A stretch of 64,000 bases of DNA from an uncultured Eubacteriales bacterium. GTDB lineage: Bacteria; Bacillota; Peptococcia; Peptococcales; SKKY01. A program made the position numbers and the translations under genes. The notes under the pieces are model-generated. The model saw only the letters and a program-made list of their open reading frames with translations, did not search any database and was not told where the DNA came from. The stretch lies in contig CAZNNQ010000006.1 in the NCBI GenBank assembly GCA_964574445.1, positions 1,322 through 65,321 on the forward strand, in the 5' to 3' direction. This document shows positions 3,312 through 52,259 of the stretch, piece after piece; within the stretch, counting starts at the first letter, position 1; each line of letters starts with the position of its first letter.

Positions 3312-4301
3312 TCAAATATAACTTCCATCTTCATTTCTTAACGAAACGTCTCCTGCCAATATTTTATTGTCTTTTCCTTCATCATCTTTTATTATCAAAT
3401 ATCCTTCATCATCAATCCTTTCAGCTATTCCTATAATTTCCCCATCAAAGGTAATTGCCTTTACTCTTTTTCCAAGGGTAATGTTATTTTCTTTCCATAG
3501 ATCTAAAATTTTATTAAAGCCTTCTTTCTTATATAATAAATAAATTTTTTCCATCTCTTCTATAATCTTTCTAAGTAGTTCATTTCTATTGATAATTTTA
3601 CCAGTATTTATTTTTAGTGATGTTGCTTTTTCCCGGATCTCCAGTGGGAAATCTGAAATTTCCTGGTTAGCATTTATTCCAATCCCAGCAACAATATAAT
3701 TTATTCTTTCCACTTCAGCAGATATTTCCGTCAATATTCCTACAATTTTTTTTCCATCTAATAAAATATCGTTTGGCCATTTGATTTTTACATCTTTATT
3801 AATATATTTTTTTATCCCTTCCATTATCCCCACCGCAACAACAAAAGTAATTTCAGAAGCTCTTACTGGCAGAATTTCAGGCTTTAAAATAAATGAAACC
3901 CAAATCCCCTTTCCATAAGGAGAAATCCAGTCTCTTCCCATTCTTCCCTTGCCTTTTGTTTGTTCTTCTGCAATAACAAACGTACCTTCTTCTTTACCTT
4001 CTCCAGCTAGTTTTTTTGCAATAGTATTAGTTGAATCAACTTGATCATATGTATAAATATTTTCTTTGTCCCAGTATTTAAGATTTAACTCTGTAATTAT
4101 CTCTGTCTTTAAAAGCTTATCAACTCTGTTTTTTAATAAATATCCTTTTCTAGGTATTGCTTCTATTATATATCCGTCTTCTTTAAGTGCATTGATTTGT
4201 TTCCATACTGCAGTTCTAGATACACCAAGACGCTCACTGATTTCTTCCCCTGAAAGATATTCTTTTTCTTCCAGTAATATTTTAAAAATCTTCTGTTTCA
4301 A
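3312..4301 (-). CDS. birA: bifunctional biotin-[acetyl-CoA-carboxylase] ligase / biotin operon repressor
   Basis: The 329-aa ORF has an N-terminal HTH (LSGEEISERLGVSRTAVWKQINALKEDGY) and the ligase motif GKGRMGRDW. Confidence 0.9.
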   Translation of the reverse strand: MKQKIFKILLEEKEYLSGEEISERLGVSRTAVWKQINALKEDGYIIEAIPRKGYLLKNRVDKLLKTEIITELNLKYWDKENIYTYDQVDSTNTIAKKLAGEGKEEGTFVIAEEQTKGKGRMGRDWISPYGKGIWVSFILKPEILPVRASEITFVVAVGIMEGIKKYINKDVKIKWPNDILLDGKKIVGILTEISAEVERINYIVAGIGINANQEISDFPLEIREKATSLKINTGKIINRNELLRKIIEEMEKIYLLYKKEGFNKILDLWKENNITLGKRVKAITFDGEIIGIAERIDDEGYLIIKDDEGKDNKILAGDVSLRNEDGSYI

Positions 4302-24399: not shown

Positions 24400-26628
24400 T
24401 CAGCAACCCATGGAGTAGTGAAAAGTTCTATTTATAACTTCTTTCTTTTGTTCTTCTGTAAGTCTATTAAAATGAACAGCATATCCTGAAACTCTTATAG
24501 TAAGATTAGGATATTTCTCCGGATTCTCCATTGCATCTAAAAGTTTTTCTCTCTGAAGAACATTTACATTCAAATGATGTCCCCCTTGCATAAAATATCC
24601 ATCGATTAAAAATGAAAGTTTTTCTGATCTTTCTCCTTCATCTTTGGATAAAGCAGTTGGAACAATTGATAAGGTGTTAGATACCCCATCCTGACAAACA
24701 CACTTGTAAGGAATTTTTGCAACGGAATTTAGTGCTGCAAGTGCACCAGAAACATCTCTGCCATGCATTGGATTTGCCCCCGGAGCAAAAGCTTCACCTG
24801 ACATCCTTCCATCTGGAGTTGCACCAGTCTTTTTACCATAAACAACGTTAGAAGTTATTGTTAGAACCGACAAAGTGTGTTCAGCATCTCTGTATAATGG
24901 ATGCTTTTTTAATTCTCCAACAAAATATTCAAGCACCTCAAGAGCTATATTATCTACCGAATCATCGTCATTACCATACTTAGGAAAATCTCCTTCAGTA
25001 TTAAAATCAACTGCAATTCCATTCTCTCTAACTGGTCTAACTGTAGCAAATTTAATTGCACTTAACGAATCTGCTACAACAGATAAACCAGCTACACCAA
25101 AAGCCATATATCGATGTATCTCGTTATCGTGAAGGGCCATCATTATTTTTTCATAAGCATATTTATCATGCATGTAATGGATAATGTTCATTGCGTTAAC
25201 ATACTGCTCTGCAACATATTCAAGAACTTTATAATAGTTTGCCTTTACCTTTTCATAGTTAAGTTCTTCATCTTCGATTTTTTCAATTCCATCTATAATT
25301 TTTTTACCACTTTTTTCATCAATACCACCATTTATTGCATATAAAAGAGATTTTCCAAGGTTACACCTTGCTCCAAAGAATTGCATTTCTTTACCAATAC
25401 GCATTGCTGATACACAACAAGCAATTGCATAATCATCACCATAAATTGGTCTCATTAAGTCATCGCTTTCATACTGTATTGAATCAGTTTCTATAGAAAT
25501 CTTTGCACAATATTCTTTAAAGCCCTTAGGTAATTTTTCAGACCAAAGAATAGTTAGATTAGGCTCTGGGGCAGGACTTAAATTAGTTAGAGTATTAAGA
25601 ATTCTAAAAGAACTTTTTGTTACAAGAGTTCTTCCATCTTCAGACATGCCTCCAACTGATTCTGTAATCCAATTTGGATCTCCCGCAAAAAGCTCATTAT
25701 AATCAGGAGTACGAAGATGTCTCACAAATCTAAGTTTCATAACTAATTGGTCCATTAGTTCTTGAGCACCAGATTCATTTAATAAACCTTTTTGTATATC
25801 TCTTTCAAAATAAATATCAAGGAATGTACTTATCCTACCAATACTTGTAGCAGCACCATTATTTTCTTTTACACTAGCTAGATATGCAAAATATAAAAAT
25901 TGAACCGCTTCTCTGGAGTCTTTAGCTGGTAGACTTATATCAATTCCGTATTCCATAGCCATTAACTTCAGCTCTTCTAAAGCTCTTATCTCTTCTGAAA
26001 TTTCTTCAATTCTTCTAATGTTTTTTTCATTTATTAACTTGATATTTTTCTTATCTTTTTTCTTTTCACTGATTAATCTATCCACACCATATAAAGTAAC
26101 TCTTCGGTAATCACCAATTATTCTTCCTCTACCATATGCATCTGGAAGACCAGTTAAAATTGCAGCACTTCTCAGGTTTCTTATCTCATCTGTATAAACA
26201 TCAAAGACACCTTTATTATGAGTTTTTCTTATAGTATCAAAAATATCGAGAACACCATCTTGTGCTTCATAACCATAAGCTTCTAAGGACTCTTCTACCA
26301 TTCTAAGACCACCATAAGGATTCATCATTCTTTTTAGTGGAGCGTCTGTTTGAAATCCTAGGATTATTTCATTTTCTTTATCTAAATATCCAGCTTTAAA
26401 ATTATTTATTCCAGATATATTTTTTGTATCAATATCGAGAACTTCTTTTTCTAACTCCTCTTTTAAAAGCCTTTCGGATTTTCCCCATAACTCTTTTGTC
26501 TTTTCCGTTGCTCCAACCAAAAATTCTTCGTTACCTTCATATGGAACATAATTTTTTTGAATAAAATCCCTTACGTCAATATTATTATTCCAGTTCCCTG
26601 TATTAAATCCATCCCATTGTTTGAACAT
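24400..26628 (-). CDS. pflB: formate C-acetyltransferase (pyruvate formate-lyase)
   Basis: The 742-aa ORF has the active-site CCVS and the glycyl-radical motif RVSGYAV near the C-terminus. Confidence 0.95.
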
Positions 26629-26649: not shown

Positions 26650-26758
26650 AAATAAAATCCACCTGGGCTTTAAACTCAAGTGGCCCAGGCGGTCGGCAAA
26701 TTCAAGATCATACTTCCTTGTGGTTAACTCCACTTCCGCCAGTTGTAAGATCATTTAT
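26650..26758 (-). ncRNA. ZTP (ZMP/ZTP, pfl-motif) riboswitch with intrinsic-terminator expression platform
   Basis: The minus-strand RNA reads AUGAUCUUACAACUGGCGGAAGUGGAGUUAACCACAAGGAAGUAUGAUCUUGAAUUUGCCGACCGCCUGGGCC. It contains the conserved ACUGGCG, the GUGG-loop-CCAC P2 hairpin, and the 3' CCGACCGCCUGGGC element. CCGCCUGGGC can alternatively pair with downstream GCCCAGGUGG, which is followed by AUUUUAUUUUUU. Confidence 0.9.
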
Positions 26759-27778: not shown

Positions 27779-29386
27779 CTACATTATTACTAATTTAGCC
27801 ATTGTAATATTTTCAAGTTTTCCAATTTTTTCAAGAGATTCCTTTGAACATTCATTATCTATGCCCATTACCATTAATGCTTTTCTAGTTTCTAAGTCTC
27901 TTCCTACCTGCATTGTTGCAATATTGATTTCTTCTTCTCCAAGTAAAGTTCCAAGTTTTCCGATAACCCCTGGAACATCAAGGTTCTTAATAAATAGCAT
28001 ATATTTACTTGGAGTTAAATCCATTGAATATCCTTCAATTTCTAGTATCTTTGCTTCTCCTTTTGAGTCAACATTACCTGCAATGGAAAATTTGTCAGCT
28101 TTTGATTTAATACTTATTTTTACAAATTCGTTAAACCCAGCATATGCCTCGGCATTTTTCTTTTCATTTATTGTAATTCCTCTTTGTTCAGCTATTAATT
28201 TTGCATTTACATAATTTACTTTATCTAAAATTACCGGTTCTAGAACCCCTTTAACAGCTGCTAAAGTAAGCATTTCTGTTTCTTGTGAAGCCAATTTTCC
28301 GTAATATTTCACCGTAATTGACTCGATTGGTTCGCTTTTCAGCTGGAAGTATATTTTGCCAAATTTTTCTAAAGCAAGAATATATGGTTTTAAAGCTTTC
28401 ATATCTTCTCTGTTCAATGTAGGAAGGTTAACTGCATTTGCTACAACCTCACCATTTAATGCTGCAATAACTTGATTTGCAATTGTTACGCCAACATTTT
28501 CTTGAGCTTCATCTGTATCGGCTCCAATATGTGGTGTTACCACTACATTAGGTCTTCCCATCAAATTATGATTATCACTTGGTTCTTTTTCGTGAACATC
28601 TAAAGCAGCACTTCTTACTTTACCACTATCTAAATATTTAATAAGGGCAGATTCTTTAATAATTCCACCTCGTGCATCATTAACAAGACGAACACCTTGC
28701 TTCATTAATTCAAATTGAGGTTCATCAATCATCCCATTTGTCTCTGGTGTTTTAGGGGTATGAATTGTGATAATATCTGATCTTTGAAGTAATTCTTCAA
28801 GAGTATCTACTTTTTCTGCTCCAAATTGCTTAAATCTTTCATCCGTTATATAAGGGTCATAGGCAATAATCGTAGTTTGAAAAGATTTCAATCTTGTTGC
28901 AACAAGAGATCCTATCTTACCCAAGCCAATAACTCCTATTGTTTTTCCAAATAATTCCGTACCTTTAAAAAATGAACGGTCCCATTCTCCCGATTTAAGC
29001 TGACGATCCGCTGCAGGTATATTTCTAGCAGAAGCAAGAAGAAGAGCTACTGCATGCTCAGCAGCAGAAACTGTATTACTTTCAGGTGTATTTGCCACAA
29101 CTACACCATACTTTGTTGCTTCATCCAATACGATATTATCAATTCCATTACCAGCTCTACCAACAACTTTTAATTTTGAAGCTTTGGACAGAAGTTCTTC
29201 GTTAACCTGAGTTGCGCTTCTGACAATTAAAGCATCGAACTCGCCGATTACATCCAGAAGTTCCTGCCGGCTCATCTTCGTACCATCAACTACCTCAAGA
29301 GATTTTTTTAATACTTCTAAACCTTCATTAGACATAGCTTCTGATACAATAACTTTAAATTTTTCCATTTGAAGAATAGCCCCCAT
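27779..29386 (-). CDS. serA: D-3-phosphoglycerate dehydrogenase (long form with ASB and ACT domains)
   Basis: The 535-aa ORF has the NAD-binding GLGKIGS, the catalytic HIGA/TPH region and a C-terminal ACT domain. An alternative start at Met7 is possible. Confidence 0.9.
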   Translation of the reverse strand: MGAILQMEKFKVIVSEAMSNEGLEVLKKSLEVVDGTKMSRQELLDVIGEFDALIVRSATQVNEELLSKASKLKVVGRAGNGIDNIVLDEATKYGVVVANTPESNTVSAAEHAVALLLASARNIPAADRQLKSGEWDRSFFKGTELFGKTIGVIGLGKIGSLVATRLKSFQTTIIAYDPYITDERFKQFGAEKVDTLEELLQRSDIITIHTPKTPETNGMIDEPQFELMKQGVRLVNDARGGIIKESALIKYLDSGKVRSAALDVHEKEPSDNHNLMGRPNVVVTPHIGADTDEAQENVGVTIANQVIAALNGEVVANAVNLPTLNREDMKALKPYILALEKFGKIYFQLKSEPIESITVKYYGKLASQETEMLTLAAVKGVLEPVILDKVNYVNAKLIAEQRGITINEKKNAEAYAGFNEFVKISIKSKADKFSIAGNVDSKGEAKILEIEGYSMDLTPSKYMLFIKNLDVPGVIGKLGTLLGEEEINIATMQVGRDLETRKALMVMGIDNECSKESLEKIGKLENITMAKLVIM

Positions 29387-29442
29387 TCATTTTTTATTCC
29401 TTCCGTGAAAAACAAATGTTTTCTCAGAAAAAACTTTTACAT

Positions 29443-29470
29443 ATTATAACACATTAAGTTCCTCTTTCAA
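29443..29470 (-). promoter_or_regulatory. putative sigma-A promoter for serA
   Basis: The minus strand reads TTGAAA (29470-29465), a 16-nt spacer, then TGtTATAAT (extended -10, TATAAT at 29448-29443). Confidence 0.55.
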
Positions 29471-29521
29471 GTCTTTAAATTTATTATAATAATTACAATT
29501 TCAGAAGATTCGGAAAAAATG

Positions 29522-29550
29522 TTGACTTTTTACCCATAATGTTGTAATAT
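29522..29550 (+). promoter_or_regulatory. putative sigma-A promoter driving the unclassified RNA unit
   Basis: TTGACT (29522-29527), a 17-nt spacer, then TAATAT (29545-29550). Confidence 0.55.
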
Positions 29551-29556
29551 TTAGTT

Positions 29557-29852
29557 ACCAGAAAGGGCAATAGCTCTGACTGGAGGTGCAAGCTTACAAT
29601 TATCTCACTCTGGAACTCTAAGAATTCAGAGGATAAATCCAGAAAATTGAGTTGGGAGCGACTTAAATGCTCAGAATAGTTAAAGTTTTCGGTATTCAAG
29701 GGGCAATGAAAGAGGAGAAAAACTAAGAATGACACCTAATAATAATAAAGGAGGTACTGAATTTGCAGTACAGCCACTTATTAAAGGATCCGGCGAAAGT
29801 TTAAGCTGACTTTACAAAGTTAGAATAAACGATTAACCGGATTCCTTTTTTT
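29557..29852 (+). ncRNA. unclassified structured RNA of about 300 nt (candidate riboswitch leader or stand-alone sRNA) ending in a terminator-like helix plus T7
   Basis: The unit lies between the promoter above and the GGATCCGG (29786-29793) / CCGGATTCC (29837-29845) helix, which is followed by TTTTTTT (29846-29852). It contains a repeated motif pair: AGGGCAAT...GGAGGTGCAAG, and GGGGCAAT...GGAGGTACTGAA. I could not assign it to a known family by eye. Confidence 0.4.
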
Positions 29853-29901
29853 ATTAAAAACTGTTATAATTCCCATACAAAAATGAGAAGGAAGGAAAAA
29901 C

Positions 29902-30411
29902 ATGAATAACAACAAAGAATTGTCTCTCACGAGAAAATTAACATTAACAGCTTTAATCTCAGCATTAGTCACCGTATCAACAATGATAATTCAAATTCCA
30001 ATACCTAGTGGTTACATTCATGGTGGAGATACAATAATTATTTTTGCCGCTGTTTTTTTCGGTCCACTTTATGGGGCTGTTGCAGCCGGAATCGGTTCAA
30101 TGCTTGCTGATATCTTAACTGGTTACGCTATATGGGCTTTCCCGACTCTTATAGTAAAAACTATTATGGCCCTTATTATTGGTAAATTAGCTTATCAAGG
30201 TTCTATACCAATTTTTAATCTTAAAACTTATGTAGGTATAATTGCCGGAATTCTTTGGATGGTTATAGGATATTACCTACTAGGTGGCCTATTAGTAGAT
30301 AGTTTTGAAATAGCCCTTGCCTCAATACCATTTAATATTATTCAGGGTATTGGAGGAATGATAATTTTTATTCCTATAGGATTAGCCTTAAAAGGGAAAA
30401 TAAAATTCTAA
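29902..30411 (+). CDS. ECF-transporter substrate-binding (S) component, substrate unknown
   Basis: The 169-aa ORF has 5-6 TM segments and the pattern GD..II.AA.FFGP..GA.AAGIGS.LADILTGY, typical of ECF S components. A GAAGGAAGGA SD lies upstream. No ecfA or ecfT gene is adjacent. Confidence 0.8.
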   Translation: MNNNKELSLTRKLTLTALISALVTVSTMIIQIPIPSGYIHGGDTIIIFAAVFFGPLYGAVAAGIGSMLADILTGYAIWAFPTLIVKTIMALIIGKLAYQGSIPIFNLKTYVGIIAGILWMVIGYYLLGGLLVDSFEIALASIPFNIIQGIGGMIIFIPIGLALKGKIKF

Positions 30412-30413
30412 TA

Positions 30414-30806
30414 CTAAATTAACCATGGGAAAAAATAATGTACGAATATAGCAATTACCGTAACTAGGCCTCCGACTTTATGGAACTTTCTCCATTTAGT
30501 TCTGAGGCTTTTTGTTTTTCCACCTAGAAAGGTTAAAAGCATAAATATAAGGGCCATTATTATTAGGGATCCCGTGTGTAATCTAAGGCCTCCTAGCATT
30601 AAATAACCATGATAACTTCCTAGGATTATCGATACTGAGGCGAAAATCGGATGTATTTCCCTTAATATTTTATATATTTTTTTATAGATAGGATTTGGTT
30701 TTTTTGATAGTTTTTTTACAAAAAAATACTTATAAACTACAAAAGATACAACCCAGAATAAAAGAAATAATGTAAAATAGCCTAAAAGTCTCGGATCAAT
30801 TAACAT
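30414..30806 (-). CDS. small integral membrane protein, function unknown
   Basis: The ORF has 4 predicted TM segments and overlaps the end of the upstream Na/Pi transporter gene. I chose the internal ATG as the start. Confidence 0.55.
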   Translation of the reverse strand: MLIDPRLLGYFTLFLLFWVVSFVVYKYFFVKKLSKKPNPIYKKIYKILREIHPIFASVSIILGSYHGYLMLGGLRLHTGSLIIMALIFMLLTFLGGKTKSLRTKWRKFHKVGGLVTVIAIFVHYFFPWLI

Positions 30807-32505
30807 TCTCTCCAACCTCATTTCCTTTTAAATTACTATCTTTACAGTATATATAATTACCCACAATTTCATTTATATTAAGCTGAACTTTAAAAAAATT
30901 ATCTCCAATGTTTTTTACAACGTAATTTATGTAGTTTATATTGTCATAGTAGCTAAACTTTTTAACTGTAATATTTTTTAGTTCTTTATTAATTACATCG
31001 GCCTTTGCCTTATTTACAGTCAAAGCCTCTAAATATTCATCTTCACCTGTTTCAATTATTTTCTTACATATTTCAATACTTTCAATAGTTATTTCTCCTA
31101 ATTCATTAATCTTTTCATAAAAAAACTCAGGAAGAAAAATATCATTTTCTTTTTTATAAATAATGGTCTCTATAATGTTTTGAGCATAGTCCCCAATTCT
31201 TTCAAGTCCCTTTATTGTATCGAAAATAAAAAACGTGTTTTGAGAAGCTTCTCTTTCTTTAGCCCCATTACCCTTAATTTGGACTGTATAATCCCTTATA
31301 TTTTCTCTTAAAGAATCTATCGCATTTTCTAACTTTTCCCCTTTATTTATTAACACAGGTAAGGTTTTTTGTGTACTGTTTAAGACTCCTAAAGCATTTT
31401 CAATGCTATACTTGGTCAGTTCAACCATGTGCAAAATTTCCTTACTTACATTTTTATAAGCAAGATATGGGGTTTCAAGAAGATTAAGGTCCAAGTTAAT
31501 TTTATATATCCCTCTATCATCATCTTCAGCTGGCTTAACCACTTTCTCTACTAATTCTTCTAAAAAGCCAAGAATAGGTATAAAGGCTAAAGCATATCCT
31601 ATTCTAAAATAAGCATTTAAGGATGCTACCTTCATCTTTCCATCTAAAAAATCCCAATTCCCTATAAAACTTTCATATATAAACTCCATACTGTTCAAAT
31701 AAAAACCCGAAATAAACAATGGCATAAAAAATAGTGCCCCTACAATATTAAAAAGAAAATGAAATGTCGCTGCTTTTCTTGCCTCAATTCCAGTATTGAG
31801 ACTCGCCAAAGCTGCAGTAATTGTTGTTCCTACCGCCGTACCTAATAAAACAGGAATCAATTGATTTAATGTTATAACTCCTTGATAAAACATCTCTTGC
31901 AAAATCCCAACCATAGCACTACTTGATTGTATAATTGCTGTAAGAATGGTTCCCACAATAAGTCCAATAATAGGATTAGTCTCCACTGTACCTAAAAGCT
32001 GATTAAAATAATGGCTCTCTTTAAGTGGGAACATGCTTTCTCCCATTAAATTCATTCCAAAAAAAAGAATACCAAAGCCAAATATTGCTCTTCCATATTC
32101 TTTCCTAATCTTATTTTTTCCCATCATTCTAAAAAACATTCCAATAGCAACAAAAAGTAAGGAATAATTACTTAACTTTATACCAATAATAAAGCCAGTA
32201 ATTACAGTTCCAATATTAGAACCGATAATCAAGGTGGCTGCTTGCCTAAAATTAATAAGCCCCGCATTCAATAGACCTATAACAAGTACAGTTGTTCCAC
32301 TTGATGACTGAATCAAAGCAGTAAAAATCGCACCAGAAACTAGCCCCCTGAAGACAGTCTTGGTGGAATGTTCAAGATAATATTTTATTCTCTTTCCGGC
32401 AACCCTCTGTAGAGATTCACTCATAGCCATTAATCCATATAGAAAAAAGCCTAGGCCTCCAAAAAAAGTTATGAGAACAATTGTATAATTATCATTAACT
32501 TCCAA
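30796..32505 (-). CDS. Na+/phosphate cotransporter family protein with C-terminal PhoU-like domains
   Basis: The 569-aa ORF has an N-terminal polytopic domain with repeated QSSS.T/QSSSA motifs and a soluble helical C-terminus. Confidence 0.85.
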   Translation of the reverse strand: MEVNDNYTIVLITFFGGLGFFLYGLMAMSESLQRVAGKRIKYYLEHSTKTVFRGLVSGAIFTALIQSSSGTTVLVIGLLNAGLINFRQAATLIIGSNIGTVITGFIIGIKLSNYSLLFVAIGMFFRMMGKNKIRKEYGRAIFGFGILFFGMNLMGESMFPLKESHYFNQLLGTVETNPIIGLIVGTILTAIIQSSSAMVGILQEMFYQGVITLNQLIPVLLGTAVGTTITAALASLNTGIEARKAATFHFLFNIVGALFFMPLFISGFYLNSMEFIYESFIGNWDFLDGKMKVASLNAYFRIGYALAFIPILGFLEELVEKVVKPAEDDDRGIYKINLDLNLLETPYLAYKNVSKEILHMVELTKYSIENALGVLNSTQKTLPVLINKGEKLENAIDSLRENIRDYTVQIKGNGAKEREASQNTFFIFDTIKGLERIGDYAQNIIETIIYKKENDIFLPEFFYEKINELGEITIESIEICKKIIETGEDEYLEALTVNKAKADVINKELKNITVKKFSYYDNINYINYVVKNIGDNFFKVQLNINEIVGNYIYCKDSNLKGNEVGENVN

Positions 32506-52027: not shown

Positions 52028-52222
52028 AAAAAATAAAAACCCCGCCTCTGTCATAATATGACAGGGACGAGGTATACCCGCGGTTCCACCCTAATTGACA
52101 GAAAAAACTGCCCACTTAATAAATACATGACTCTGGAATGCCTTCCCTTGTTTTCACCAGGCTCTCACCACCCCTAGTTCGCTTTATAATAAACAAAGTA
52201 CTTATTTCCTTCATTGCCTTTT
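52028..52222 (-). ncRNA. T-box riboswitch (glycine, GGC specifier) controlling glyQS
   Basis: On the minus strand, the Stem I base reads GGCAAUGAAGGAAAUAAGUA. The specifier region reads GGGAAGGCAUUCC, with GGC followed by A. The T-box sequence is AAUUAGGGUGGAACCGCGGG. A terminator helix (CCCUGUCAU...AUGACAGAGG.GGGG) is followed by UUUUUAUUUUUU. Confidence 0.9.
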
Positions 52223-52259
52223 CCATATTCTTTTTTACATTATTGTTAATTTAACAAAA

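What the first reader, a model, noticed from the sequence alone, without database searches (positions are those of the whole stretch)
29522..29901. Unclassified ~300-nt promoter-to-terminator RNA unit (with a 26-codon sORF) upstream of a lone ECF S-component gene
Seen in sequence. (a) The 515-bp serA / ECF-S gap is the largest non-coding stretch in the window. (b) A good sigma-A promoter (TTGACT-17-TAATAT, 29522-29550) fires toward the ECF S gene. (c) About 295 nt later, a helix GGATCCGG (29786-93) / CCGGATTCC (29837-45) with a 43-nt branched loop is followed by T7 (29846-52). (d) Between that terminator and the gene lies a second, extended -10 promoter-like element, TGtTATAAT (29862-29870). 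The RNA could therefore be either a leader or an independent sRNA. (e) A motif pair occurs twice: AGGGCAAT (29564-71) with GGAGGTGCAAG (29582-92), and GGGGCAAT (29700-07) with GGAGGTAC (29750-57). The second pair is followed by a hairpin GTACTG-AATTTG-CAGTAC and then GCCACT (29773-78). (f) An sORF at 29729-29809 encodes MTPNNNKGGTEFAVQPLIKGSGESLS. It has GAGGAG 11 nt upstream and reads through the 5' arm of the terminator helix. Established knowledge: solitary ECF S-component genes are very often riboswitch-controlled (TPP, cobalamin, FMN, THF, preQ1, SAM or T-box). This genome also encodes a B12-dependent mutase at the window start. Inference: pieces resemble cobalamin strings (AAAGGGcAA, GGUGCAAG, GCCACU) and TPP strings (GGAGGUGC ... 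GGAUAAA, with the same 49-nt offset as in thiM). However, the key invariant elements are absent: no B12 box, no CUGAGA, and no UGGN T-box bulge. It may therefore be a divergent or new regulatory RNA class, or a translation-coupled attenuator that uses the sORF.
Basis: partly seen in the sequence, partly recalled or inferred. Interest (0 to 1): 0.6.

Follow-up and report, generated by a model that had tools for sequence, protein, structure and literature searches.

The report
Unclassified structured leader RNA before ECF transporter
A roughly 295-base RNA with its own promoter and terminator, sitting just before a vitamin-type transporter gene, is real, conserved and folded in related uncultured bacteria, matches no catalogued RNA family, and most likely controls that gene, though what it senses is unknown.

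Summary
The promoter (29522-29550), the long terminator hairpin with a T7 run (29783-29852) and the extended -10 (29862-29870) are all present. They are conserved upstream of every orthologous S-component gene of 70% identity or more (11 distinct leader types).

No Rfam 15 family matches the window or any orthologue, even at E<=10.

The RNA is strongly structured, with compensatory changes in:
- a 5' hairpin;
- a three-way-junction domain closed by a long interrupted helix (29584-29737);
- a three-tier terminator hairpin.

A 30-nt block (29747-29776) is identical in all 11 types. It is a perfect 9-nt Shine-Dalgarno followed by a hairpin that shows a UUG in its loop.

The resemblances to cobalamin, TPP and T-box RNAs fail.

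A different 13-codon UUG ORF (29763-29804), which ends inside the terminator, is present in all types, but the statistics for it are weak.

No RNA antiterminator is evident. Two lineages lack the second promoter, so there the gene must be read through from the leader.

Best reading: a lineage-specific, cis-acting attenuator or orphan riboswitch candidate, possibly gated by the ribosome. The main rival is an independent sRNA. The ligand is unknown.

The parts
29496..29510 (.). CodY-box-like palindrome (CAATTTCAGAAGATT) between the divergent serA promoter and the leader -35; context, possible protein control of the leader promoter
   Evidence: 3 mismatches to AATTTTCWGAAAATT in the window, not significant alone. 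The homologous position in L001 has 1 mismatch and in L017 2 mismatches, in each case the only such site in about 6.4 kb. Visible in most orthologues.
29522..29550 (+). Leader promoter (-35 TTGACT, 17 nt, -10 TAATAT); inferred start near 29557
   Evidence: TTGAC[AT] is invariant in all leaders. It is the only + strand promoter-like site upstream of the gene in L014 and L020.
29558..29583 (+). 5' hairpin P1 (CCAG..GGGC-AAUA-GCUC..CUGG)
   Evidence: Every one of the 11 leader types folds a hairpin here (-6.4 to -12.5 kcal/mol) from a different sequence.
29584..29737 (+). Three-way-junction domain. A long interrupted closing helix: P2a 29584-89/29732-37, P2b 29593-96/29724-27, P2c 29603-06/29715-18, P2d 29610-15/29695-700. 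Then P3 GG 29631-32 / CC 29639-40, and P4 29642-48/29684-90 enclosing the P5 hairpin 29656-72. Conserved junction strands: GAAUUCAGAGG (29622-32) and CGGUAUU (29690-96).
   Evidence: On an unfitted MAFFT alignment, 93.6% of cells pair against 38-52% when partners are slid, and 8 pairs change on both sides. A covariance model built without L046 and L017 finds both (83.7 and 34.2 bits). On the model alignment, 15 pairs change on both sides.
29747..29776 (+). Invariant 30-nt module AAAGGAGGUACUGAAUUUGCAGUACAGCCA: a 9-nt perfect Shine-Dalgarno (AAAGGAGGU), then the hairpin GUACUG-AAUUUG-CAGUAC with UUG in the loop, flanked by GG/CC and tandem A.G pairs, and enclosed by the helix UAAUAA/UUAUUA (29740-45/29779-84)
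   Evidence: Identical in all 11 leader types while every other helix varies; 8/8 pairs never vary. -11.3 kcal/mol, z = -4.0. Single copy in the window.
29763..29804 (+). Candidate 13-codon leader ORF (UUG; MQYSHLLKDPAKV; stop UAA 29802-04) that reads through the 5' arm of the terminator
   Evidence: Present in all 11 types. The stop lies 8 nt (0 nt in L017) past the 5' arm, even though L017's terminator has a different sequence. Openness of the frame is not statistically compelling.
29783..29852 (+). Three-tier terminator hairpin: lower stem AAAGGAUCCGG / CCGGAUUCCUUU, middle GUUUA/UAAAC, top CUGACUU/AAGUUAG, followed by a U7 tract
   Evidence: The architecture is kept in L017 with a different sequence (-29 kcal/mol).
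29862..29870 (+). Extended -10 promoter-like element TGTTATAAT (second promoter, start expected near 29877)
   Evidence: TG[CT]TATAAT is kept in 9/11 leader types while its flanks vary. It is deleted in L014 and L020.
29870..29896 (+). Pyrimidine stretch directly after the -10 (UUCCC, 29870-74) that can pair with the S-gene Shine-Dalgarno (GAAGGAAGGA, 29887-96). It would be present only in transcripts that read through from the leader.
   Evidence: The pairing covaries between lineages: GCCCAU/AUGGG (L001, L044), UCUCAC/GUGAGA (L023), GCUUCC/GGAGGC (L017).
29902..30411 (+). ECF transporter S-component gene (169 aa)
   Evidence: PF07155 E 2.9e-36. Closest solved relative is 4HZU chain S (PdxU2/HmpT), E 1.5e-9. 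Closest named relative is PdxU2 at 42% identity. Scores below the cut-off of TIGR04002.

Best explanation
The region is a lineage-specific, cis-acting transcription-attenuation leader of the ECF S-component gene, that is, an orphan riboswitch-type element.

Shown:
- A sigma-A promoter (29522-50) starts a roughly 295-nt RNA.
- The RNA folds into a 5' hairpin, a three-way-junction domain (29584-29737), an invariant module (29747-76) and a long three-tier intrinsic terminator (29783-29852).
- By default the terminator forms, because nothing in the RNA competes for its 5' arm.

Inferred:
- Read-through into the transporter gene needs an outside input.
- The input I think most likely is a ribosome. 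The invariant module is a perfect 9-nt Shine-Dalgarno with a UUG 8 nt downstream. The 13-codon frame it opens runs over the terminator's 5' arm and stops inside the terminator, so a ribosome on it would prevent termination.
- The three-way-junction domain would gate that ribosome loading. One possible route is docking of its conserved junction strand GAAUUCAG on the hairpin's CUGAAUUU, which covers the UUG. The gate would respond to a small molecule related to the transporter's (B6-type?) substrate.
- The ligand is unknown.
- The second promoter gives leader-independent basal expression in most lineages.
For: Not a known family:
- No Rfam family in the window or in orthologues.

Conservation and distribution:
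- The leader is conserved upstream of all S-component orthologues of 70% identity or more that were recovered.
- It is absent from homologues of 39-55% identity, several of which instead sit directly downstream of a Crp-family regulator gene, with a gap of about 140 nt.
- The one extra copy found in JGI metagenomes also precedes the S gene.

Structure:
- Covariation supports the junction domain and the terminator.
- Held-out divergent leaders are recognised by the model.

Operon link:
- In L014 and L020 the second promoter is deleted and the terminator abuts the gene's ribosome-binding site. The leader promoter is then the only promoter for the gene.

Terminator default:
- The terminator's 5' arm stays unpaired in truncated folds of most orthologues.

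Ribosome gating:
- The invariant block contains AAAGGAGGU. From established knowledge, this is complementary to the 16S rRNA 3' tail ACCUCCUUU, an invariant partner, which would explain why it shows no covariation.
- The UUG frame is open in all 11 types and ends 0-8 nt after the 5' arm, including in L017, whose terminator sequence is different.
- The junction strand and the hairpin are complementary by 7-8 bp in all types, and A-to-G changes in the junction strand give G-U pairs.
Against: - An extended -10 promoter conserved in 9/11 types lies between the terminator and the gene. That is unusual for a riboswitch and would bypass the leader.
- In those lineages, read-through transcripts also carry a covarying anti-Shine-Dalgarno. 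This looks more like insulation than activation.
- No mutually exclusive antiterminator was found.
- The mini-ORF is short, two of three frames are open there, and the substitutions show no clear coding bias.
- The junction-hairpin complementarity is not unique within the leader.
- Only 11 leader types from one narrow clade are available, so some covariation statistics are inflated by relatedness.
- There are no transcript data and no ligand.
Confidence: 0.45

Rival explanations
1. It is an independent small RNA gene. The leader promoter makes a roughly 295-nt structured RNA that ends at a strong terminator and acts elsewhere, in trans or as a protein or ribosome partner. The S gene is expressed from its own extended -10 promoter. 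Adjacency reflects conserved synteny in a narrow clade.
For: - It has its own conserved promoter and a strong terminator with U7.
- TGnTATAAT is conserved right after the terminator in 9/11 types.
- A covarying anti-SD would silence read-through transcripts.
- No RNA antiterminator was found.
- The terminator hairpin's three-tier architecture is conserved beyond what termination needs, as in stable sRNAs.
- Synteny on both sides is largely conserved, so linkage alone is weak evidence of coupling.
Against: - In L014 and L020 the gene has no promoter other than the leader's, and the hairpin directly abuts its ribosome-binding site.
- The RNA was never seen without the S gene.
- Sister-clade homologues lack the RNA and several sit directly downstream of a Crp-family regulator gene instead, which suggests a swap of regulators.
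Confidence: 0.3
2. It is a conventional metabolite riboswitch. The three-way-junction domain, perhaps together with the invariant hairpin, is an aptamer, and ligand binding alone decides whether the terminator forms, without any ribosome.
For: - A complex junction with conserved single-stranded nucleotides and covarying helices.
- Its position before a micronutrient transporter gene.
- A terminator directly downstream.
Against: - No alternative pairing competes with the terminator in any orthologue except L017.
- The invariant helix is sequence-constrained rather than structure-constrained.
- The perfect 9-nt Shine-Dalgarno is unexplained.
- A second promoter lies downstream.
Confidence: 0.15
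3. It is a protein-dependent antitermination leader. The invariant hairpin is the binding site of a sequence-specific RNA-binding protein, as with RAT/LicT, PyrR or ANTAR-type systems, which blocks the adjacent terminator.
For: - Absolute sequence invariance of a 30-nt irregular hairpin next to the terminator, while all other helices covary.
- From memory only, its outline resembles RAT hairpins (UACUG-loop-CAG with flanking GG/CC).
Against: - The hairpin ends 6 nt before the terminator arm and does not overlap it.
- There is no second copy in the window and none in JGI metagenomes outside this locus, so there is no regulon.
- No RNA-binding protein gene is among the annotated neighbours shown for the loci.
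- It does not explain the roughly 150-nt junction domain.
Confidence: 0.07
4. It is a divergent member of a known class (cobalamin, TPP, glycine or T-box), or a translation-coupled attenuator that uses the reader's 26-codon sORF.
For: The sORF is present in the window.
Against: - No such Rfam hit at E<=10 in the window, L017 or L046. The same tool finds a true T-box and a ZTP riboswitch in the window.
- The strings lie in non-conserved positions.
- The sORF start is missing at the homologous position in all 10 other leader types, and its frame is broken by an indel.
Confidence: 0.02

Closest known systems
Transcription-terminating riboswitches upstream of solitary ECF S-component genes (TPP-ThiT, FMN-RibU, THF-FolT, preQ1-QueT, cobalamin-CbrT); named from general knowledge
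   Same: A promoter, then a conserved multi-helix junction domain, then an intrinsic terminator, placed directly upstream of a lone S-component gene. The helices covary.
   Different: No match to any Rfam model. No recognisable antiterminator. An invariant Shine-Dalgarno/UUG hairpin sits between the junction domain and the terminator. A conserved extra promoter and an anti-SD lie after the terminator. Distribution is limited to one narrow clade. The ligand is unknown.
Ribosome-mediated transcription attenuation leaders (enterobacterial trp/his/pheA leader peptides; Bacillus bmrB-bmrCD; Salmonella mgtA leader with mgtL); from general knowledge
   Same: A short ORF with a strong ribosome-binding site, whose translation overlaps a terminator element, so that ribosome position could decide termination. 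The mgtA leader also combines a structured sensing leader with a short ORF.
   Different: No run of regulatory codons. The peptide is not conserved beyond MQYS. The start codon is displayed in a hairpin loop. A 150-nt junction domain lies upstream. No 1:2/2:3/3:4 alternative hairpins. Translation has not been demonstrated.
Riboswitch-derived or terminator-bounded stable RNAs that coexist with a downstream gene (Listeria SreA/SreB, Enterococcus/Listeria EutX/Rli55); from general knowledge
   Same: A promoter-to-terminator transcript that may accumulate as an RNA of its own while lying upstream of a gene.
   Different: Those contain known aptamers (SAM-I, cobalamin) and have known trans partners. 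Here neither an aptamer class nor a target is known.
PdxU2/HmpT ECF S component (PDB 4HZU chain S; pyridoxamine shown as substrate in PMC4860826)
   Same: The downstream protein belongs to the same Pfam family (PF07155), and 4HZU_S is its only solved relative (E 1.5e-9). In S. salivarius, pdxU2 and serC-serA are both CodY targets (PMC5966866). Here the gene is next to serA with a CodY-like box between them.
   Different: The similarity is distant (42% identity to the nearest protein named PdxU2). The protein scores below the cut-off of every NCBIfam model. Substrate specificity cannot be transferred.

Membership tests
Cobalamin riboswitch (RF00174 / RF01689) | Match to the covariance model (core junction, B12 box, GCCACUG) | tested here: not met
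   No hit at gathering score or at E<=10 on 29380-29960. None in L017 or L046. The GCCACU string is part of the invariant hairpin module, not of a cobalamin core.
TPP riboswitch (RF00059) | Match to the covariance model (CUGAGA, ACCUGAUCUGGAUAAUGCCAGCG core) | tested here: not met
   No hit at E<=10.
T-box leader (RF00230) | Stem I with specifier loop, and the T-box sequence with a UGGN bulge in an antiterminator; covariance-model score | tested here: not met
   No hit at E<=10. The same search finds a genuine T-box at 52060-52223 (95 bits). The block reads AGGU, not UGGN.
Any Rfam 15 family | Score at or above gathering, or a weak hit shared by divergent orthologues | tested here: not met
   Only unrelated chance hits were found, and they differ in each orthologue.
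Riboswitch (generic kind) | Conserved, covarying structured domain in the 5' region of a metabolite-related gene | tested here: met
   junction domain; transporter gene.
Riboswitch (generic kind) | Expression platform with a terminator and a mutually exclusive antiterminator | tested here: inconclusive
   The terminator is present and covaries. No conserved competing pairing exists for its 5' arm: pairing probabilities are mostly below 0.4 in truncated folds, and only L017 differs.
Riboswitch (generic kind) | Direct, specific ligand binding | not testable with these tools
   Needs in-line probing, ITC or transcription assays.
Ribosome-mediated (leader-peptide) attenuator | Short ORF with a functional ribosome-binding site, conserved among orthologues | tested here: met
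   AAAGGAGGU, an 8-nt spacer and UUG are invariant. An 11-13-codon ORF is present in all 11 types.
Ribosome-mediated (leader-peptide) attenuator | ORF overlaps the terminator or antiterminator so that ribosome position matters | tested here: met
   The ORF covers the terminator's 5' arm and stops 0-8 nt after it, in both terminator sequence types.
Ribosome-mediated (leader-peptide) attenuator | Coding-type conservation or regulatory codons | tested here: inconclusive
   No codon runs. The peptide varies after MQYS. By eye, variable sites fall roughly 3:3:5 over codon positions 1:2:3, read from the alignments. Another frame is also open.
Independent sRNA gene | Own promoter and terminator, with the downstream gene on its own promoter | tested here: inconclusive
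   Met in 9/11 leader types. Not met in L014 and L020, where no promoter lies between the hairpin and the gene.
RAT/LicT-type protein antitermination | RAT hairpin overlapping the terminator, a PRD antiterminator protein and a PTS sugar operon | not tested
   The resemblance of the hairpin outline is from memory only. The hairpin does not overlap the terminator arm, and the downstream gene is not a PTS gene.

The most novel reading that the evidence does not exclude
It is a new riboswitch class for a B6-type vitamer (or another micronutrient carried by PdxU2-like S components) that works in an unusual way. The ligand-bound three-way junction docks on an invariant hairpin that presents a perfect Shine-Dalgarno and a UUG. 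This blocks translation of a 13-codon leader ORF whose ribosome would otherwise keep a long terminator from forming. It would be a ligand-gated, ribosome-executed transcription attenuator in a Gram-positive-type anaerobe.
Probability: 0.1. Interest if true: 0.85.

Novelty: new member of a known kind. Interest (0 to 1): 0.55.

Why it matters
If it is a true cis-regulator, it adds an uncatalogued structured RNA class to the small set of RNA elements that control ECF vitamin transporters. It would do so for a transporter family (PdxU2-like) for which I know of no RNA regulator or natural riboswitch ligand, and none turned up in the literature searches run here. The absolutely invariant Shine-Dalgarno/UUG hairpin placed between a sensor-like junction and a terminator would be a testable case of a structured RNA that gates a ribosome, which in turn decides termination. 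That combination is documented mainly in enteric Mg2+ leaders. If it is instead an autonomous sRNA, it is still a new, well-folded 300-nt RNA of unknown function in uncultured anaerobic-digester and wastewater Clostridia-type bacteria.

Tried and rejected
1. Known RNA families. Rfam at gathering score on the window and 24 loci, and at E<=10 on the window, L017 and L046 leaders, gave only unrelated chance hits.
4. A wider distribution.
   - A metagenome scan with AGGAGGTAC-N10-GTACAGCCA found 1 true and 11 random hits.
   - A viral scan found none.
   - The covariance model found nothing upstream of the homologues of 39-55% identity or elsewhere in the window.
   - Homologues of about 50% identity have short gaps.
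5. An RNA antiterminator.
   - Truncated folds show the terminator's 5' arm free.
   - Hand-searched pairings were either too weak or not conserved: CC/GG extension of the helix around the invariant block, CUCUAA/UUAGAG, and A[AG]AGG motifs against the 3' arm.
6. A local hairpin CUCU/AGAG, or UUGAA/UUCAG, in the junction strand. This was dropped because G-to-A changes are uncompensated. It was replaced by P2d (CUUGAA/UUCAAG), which does covary.
7. The hairpin CCAGA/UUUGG from the single-sequence fold. This was replaced by P3 and P4, which are supported by L046's 9-bp insertion and by compensatory changes.
8. Protein coding on either strand. No conserved ORF was found, and the 80-aa minus-strand ORF is window-specific.
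9. Literature searches for PdxU2, TIGR04002 and a riboswitch candidate for ECF/B6 found no description of such an RNA.
Full report
**What is there**

The 515-bp gap between serA (27779-29386, minus strand) and a 169-aa ECF S-component gene (29902-30411, PF07155, E 2.9e-36) is the largest internal ORF-free stretch of the window.
- TTGACT-17-TAATAT at 29522-29550;
- the helix 29786-93 / 29837-45 followed by T7;
- TGTTATAAT at 29862-70.

The inferred transcript (about 29557-29852) folds far better than shuffled sequence (-86 kcal/mol, z = -6.3).

**Not a known RNA**

Rfam 15 finds a T-box (52060-52223) and a ZTP riboswitch (26676-26756) in the window, but nothing in this region at gathering score. 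At E<=10 on 29380-29960 it finds only unrelated chance hits. No orthologous leader has a hit either, and the two most divergent ones share no weak hit.

**Conservation and distribution**

Protein relatives of the S component were used to fetch loci. Every relative of 70% identity or more has a gap of 460-570 nt upstream containing the same element. After removing duplicates there are 11 distinct leader types:
- the window;
- L001, L049, L002, L036 and L044, which are close to it;
- L014, L020 and L023;
- L046 and L017, the most divergent.

Relatives of 39-55% identity have short upstream gaps and no such RNA. Those at about 50% (L025, L027, L053) instead sit directly downstream of a Crp-family regulator gene.

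A scan of JGI metagenomes for the most conserved block, with its centre degenerate, gave one further true copy (L036), again before the S gene, plus 11 random matches. A viral scan gave none. The element is therefore single-copy and confined to one narrow clade of uncultured bacteria, labelled Clostridia, Eubacteriales or Peptococcia in the records.

**Structure**

*5' hairpin.* A 5' hairpin (29558-83) is formed in every type from a different sequence.

*Junction domain.* A three-way-junction domain spans 29584-29737. Its closing helix is long and interrupted. Helix sequences below are written in L001 letters, with the covarying variants from other lineages:

| Helix | L001 pairing | Variants |
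|---|---|---|
| P2a | AGGUGC/GCACCU | AAGUGC/GCACUU (L014); GUGUC/GACAC (L017) |
| P2b | CUUA/UAAG | CACC/GGUG (L046); CCUGG/CCAGG (L017) |
| P2c | CCUCC/GGAGG | UCUUCU/AGAAGA (L014); UAUCU/AGAUA (L020) |
| P2d | CUUGAA/UUCAAG | UUUAAA/UUUAAA (L014) |
| P3 | GG-loop-CC | minimal GG-GUAA-CC (L017); 9 bp (L046) |
| P4 | GAAAAUU/AAGUUUUC | GGAAAC/GGUUUCC (L017); GGAAAUC/GAUUUUC (L044) |

- P4 encloses an almost invariant hairpin P5 (GAGCG...UGCUC).
- The conserved unpaired junction strands are GA[AG]UUCA[AG]AGG and CGG[UC]AUU.

*Tests of the junction domain.*
- On a plain MAFFT alignment of nine leaders, this structure pairs 93.6% of cells, against 38-52% when partners are slid. Eight pairs change on both sides. 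No shuffle out of 500 reaches the observed covariation.
- A covariance model built from those nine leaders recognises the held-out L046 (83.7 bits, E 3e-13) and L017 (34.2 bits, E 8e-4) and nothing else.
- On the model alignment of all 11, 15 pairs change on both sides. That alignment is fitted to the structure, and the sequences are related, so these numbers are generous.

*Terminator.* The terminator is a three-tier hairpin of about 70 nt (-25 kcal/mol, z = -5.9). L017 keeps the architecture with a different sequence (-29 kcal/mol). On the unfitted alignment, 10 of its pairs change on both sides.

**The invariant module**

Between the junction domain and the terminator lies AAAGGAGGUACUGAAUUUGCAGUACAGCCA (29747-76). 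It is identical in all 11 types, although every other helix varies. All 8 of its pairs never vary.

It folds as GG / tandem A.G / GUACUG-AAUUUG-CAGUAC / CC (-11.3 kcal/mol), inside a flanking A-U helix.

Its first nine bases, AAAGGAGGU, are a perfect complement of the 16S rRNA 3' tail (established knowledge). Eight bases later, in the hairpin loop, is UUG (29763).

The frame from that UUG is open in all 11 types:
- 13 codons, MQYSHLLKDPAKV in the window;
- 11 codons, MQYSQKRKKDR in L017.

The frame runs over the 5' arm of the terminator and stops 8 nt past it (0 nt in L017).

I regard this as suggestive, not proven. The frame is short, another frame is also open, and the substitutions show no clear third-position bias.

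- The 26-codon sORF (29729-29809) has no start codon at the homologous position in any of the other 10 types, and it is broken by a 1-nt indel in all of them.
- The 'motif pair that occurs twice' falls in the variable 5' hairpin and a variable internal loop, and is not conserved.
- The strings recalling cobalamin, TPP and T-box RNAs have no support.

**Leader or separate RNA?**

For a cis-acting leader:
- The RNA is never found without the gene.
- In L014 and L020 a deletion of about 40 nt has removed the second promoter. The hairpin then abuts the gene's ribosome-binding site, and the leader promoter is the only promoter-like site upstream. In L014 the U tract is also largely lost.
- The sister clade lacks the RNA and has a neighbouring protein regulator gene instead.

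For a separate RNA:
- TG[CT]TATAAT after the terminator is conserved in 9 of 11 types, including L017 and L046.
- The 6-7 nt between that -10 and its expected start are complementary to the gene's Shine-Dalgarno, with clear covariation: GCCCAU/AUGGG, UCUCAC/GUGAGA, GCUUCC/GGAGGC. Only read-through transcripts would therefore have a masked ribosome-binding site.
- No RNA antiterminator exists. In folds truncated before the 3' arm, the 5' arm is mostly unpaired.

**Mechanism I commit to**

I put 45% on a cis-acting attenuator whose default state is termination.

Because no RNA competitor for the terminator exists, and the only absolutely invariant element is a perfect ribosome-binding site with a start codon, I infer two things. 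A ribosome translating the mini-ORF is what prevents termination. The junction domain gates ribosome access, possibly through the 7-8 bp complementarity between its conserved strand GAAUUCAG (29622-29) and CUGAAUUU (29757-64), which includes two bases of the UUG.

That complementarity is kept in all types, with A-to-G changes giving G-U pairs. However, it is not unique within the leader.

The sensed signal is unknown. A B6-type vitamer is a guess from the distant PdxU2 relationship (PMC4860826).

Rival explanations and their weights:
- independent sRNA: 30%;
- ribosome-free riboswitch: 15%;
- protein-mediated antitermination at the invariant hairpin: 7%;

**Context noticed**

A CodY-box-like palindrome lies just upstream of the leader's -35.
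- It has 3 mismatches in the window, which is not significant alone.
- It has 1-2 mismatches at the same position in L001 and L017, in each case the only such site in about 6.4 kb.
- In Streptococcus salivarius, CodY directly controls both serC-serA and pdxU2-pdxK-pdxU (PMC5966866). This fits a shared amino-acid/B6 logic for the serA / leader-S-gene pair.

**Verdict**

This is a real, conserved, covarying RNA element of about 295 nt that no catalogue covers. It is probably a new cis-regulatory leader (an orphan riboswitch or attenuator) for a PdxU2-like ECF S component. It has three unusual features: an invariant Shine-Dalgarno/UUG hairpin, a three-tier terminator, and a downstream promoter with an anti-SD. 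Its narrow distribution and the lack of any transcript or ligand data limit the claim.

Noticed in passing
window 26676-26756 (-): ZMP/ZTP riboswitch (pfl motif, 63.6 bits) directly upstream of the pyruvate formate-lyase-like gene 24400-26628 (-). The same arrangement occurs in the related contig L036 (9374-9454).
   Followed up: no
window 52060-52223 (-): T-box leader (95 bits, just above the gathering score of 93). It served as a positive control for the Rfam search. Its downstream gene was not examined.
   Followed up: no
window 29496-29510; L001 2589-2603; L017 1462-1476: A CodY-box-like palindrome is conserved just upstream of the leader's -35, between the divergent serA and leader promoters. 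It has 1-2 mismatches in orthologues and 3 in the window. In S. salivarius, both serC-serA and pdxU2 are CodY targets (PMC5966866).
   Followed up: partly
window 29870-29896 and the homologous positions in L001, L023, L044, L046, L017: The bases between the second promoter's -10 and its expected start pair with the S gene's Shine-Dalgarno, and the pairing covaries (GCCCAU/AUGGG, UCUCAC/GUGAGA, GCUUCC/GGAGGC). Only transcripts coming through the terminator would carry this mask.
   Followed up: partly
window 29754-29771 (-): Read on the minus strand, the invariant hairpin followed by CTCCTTTATT is scored as a terminator-like site, in the window and in L014 and L020. This is probably incidental.
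   Followed up: no
window 30414-30821 (-): A 135-aa predicted membrane protein with no Pfam or NCBIfam match lies convergent to the S gene and overlaps the start of the Na/Pi-cotransporter gene (30796-32505) by 26 nt. A 128-130-aa counterpart, also without a Pfam match, is present in several related contigs (L017, L045, L046, L049, L051).
   Followed up: no
L025, L027, L029 and L053, upstream of the S-component homologue: S-component homologues of about 50% identity lack the leader and sit about 140 nt downstream of a Crp/Fnr-family regulator gene. This may be a protein-based replacement of the RNA control.
   Followed up: no
L029 163-308: An RT-14 RNA (RF02921, 75.9 bits) lies next to a reverse transcriptase and a bAvd-like gene, which looks like a diversity-generating retroelement in an unrelated contig.
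   Followed up: no
L014 about 3975-4000; L020 about 2640-2671: Two lineages have lost about 40 nt between the terminator and the gene (the second promoter and the anti-SD). L014 has also lost most of the U tract, yet the three-tier hairpin itself is kept. This suggests the hairpin has a role beyond termination.
   Followed up: partly
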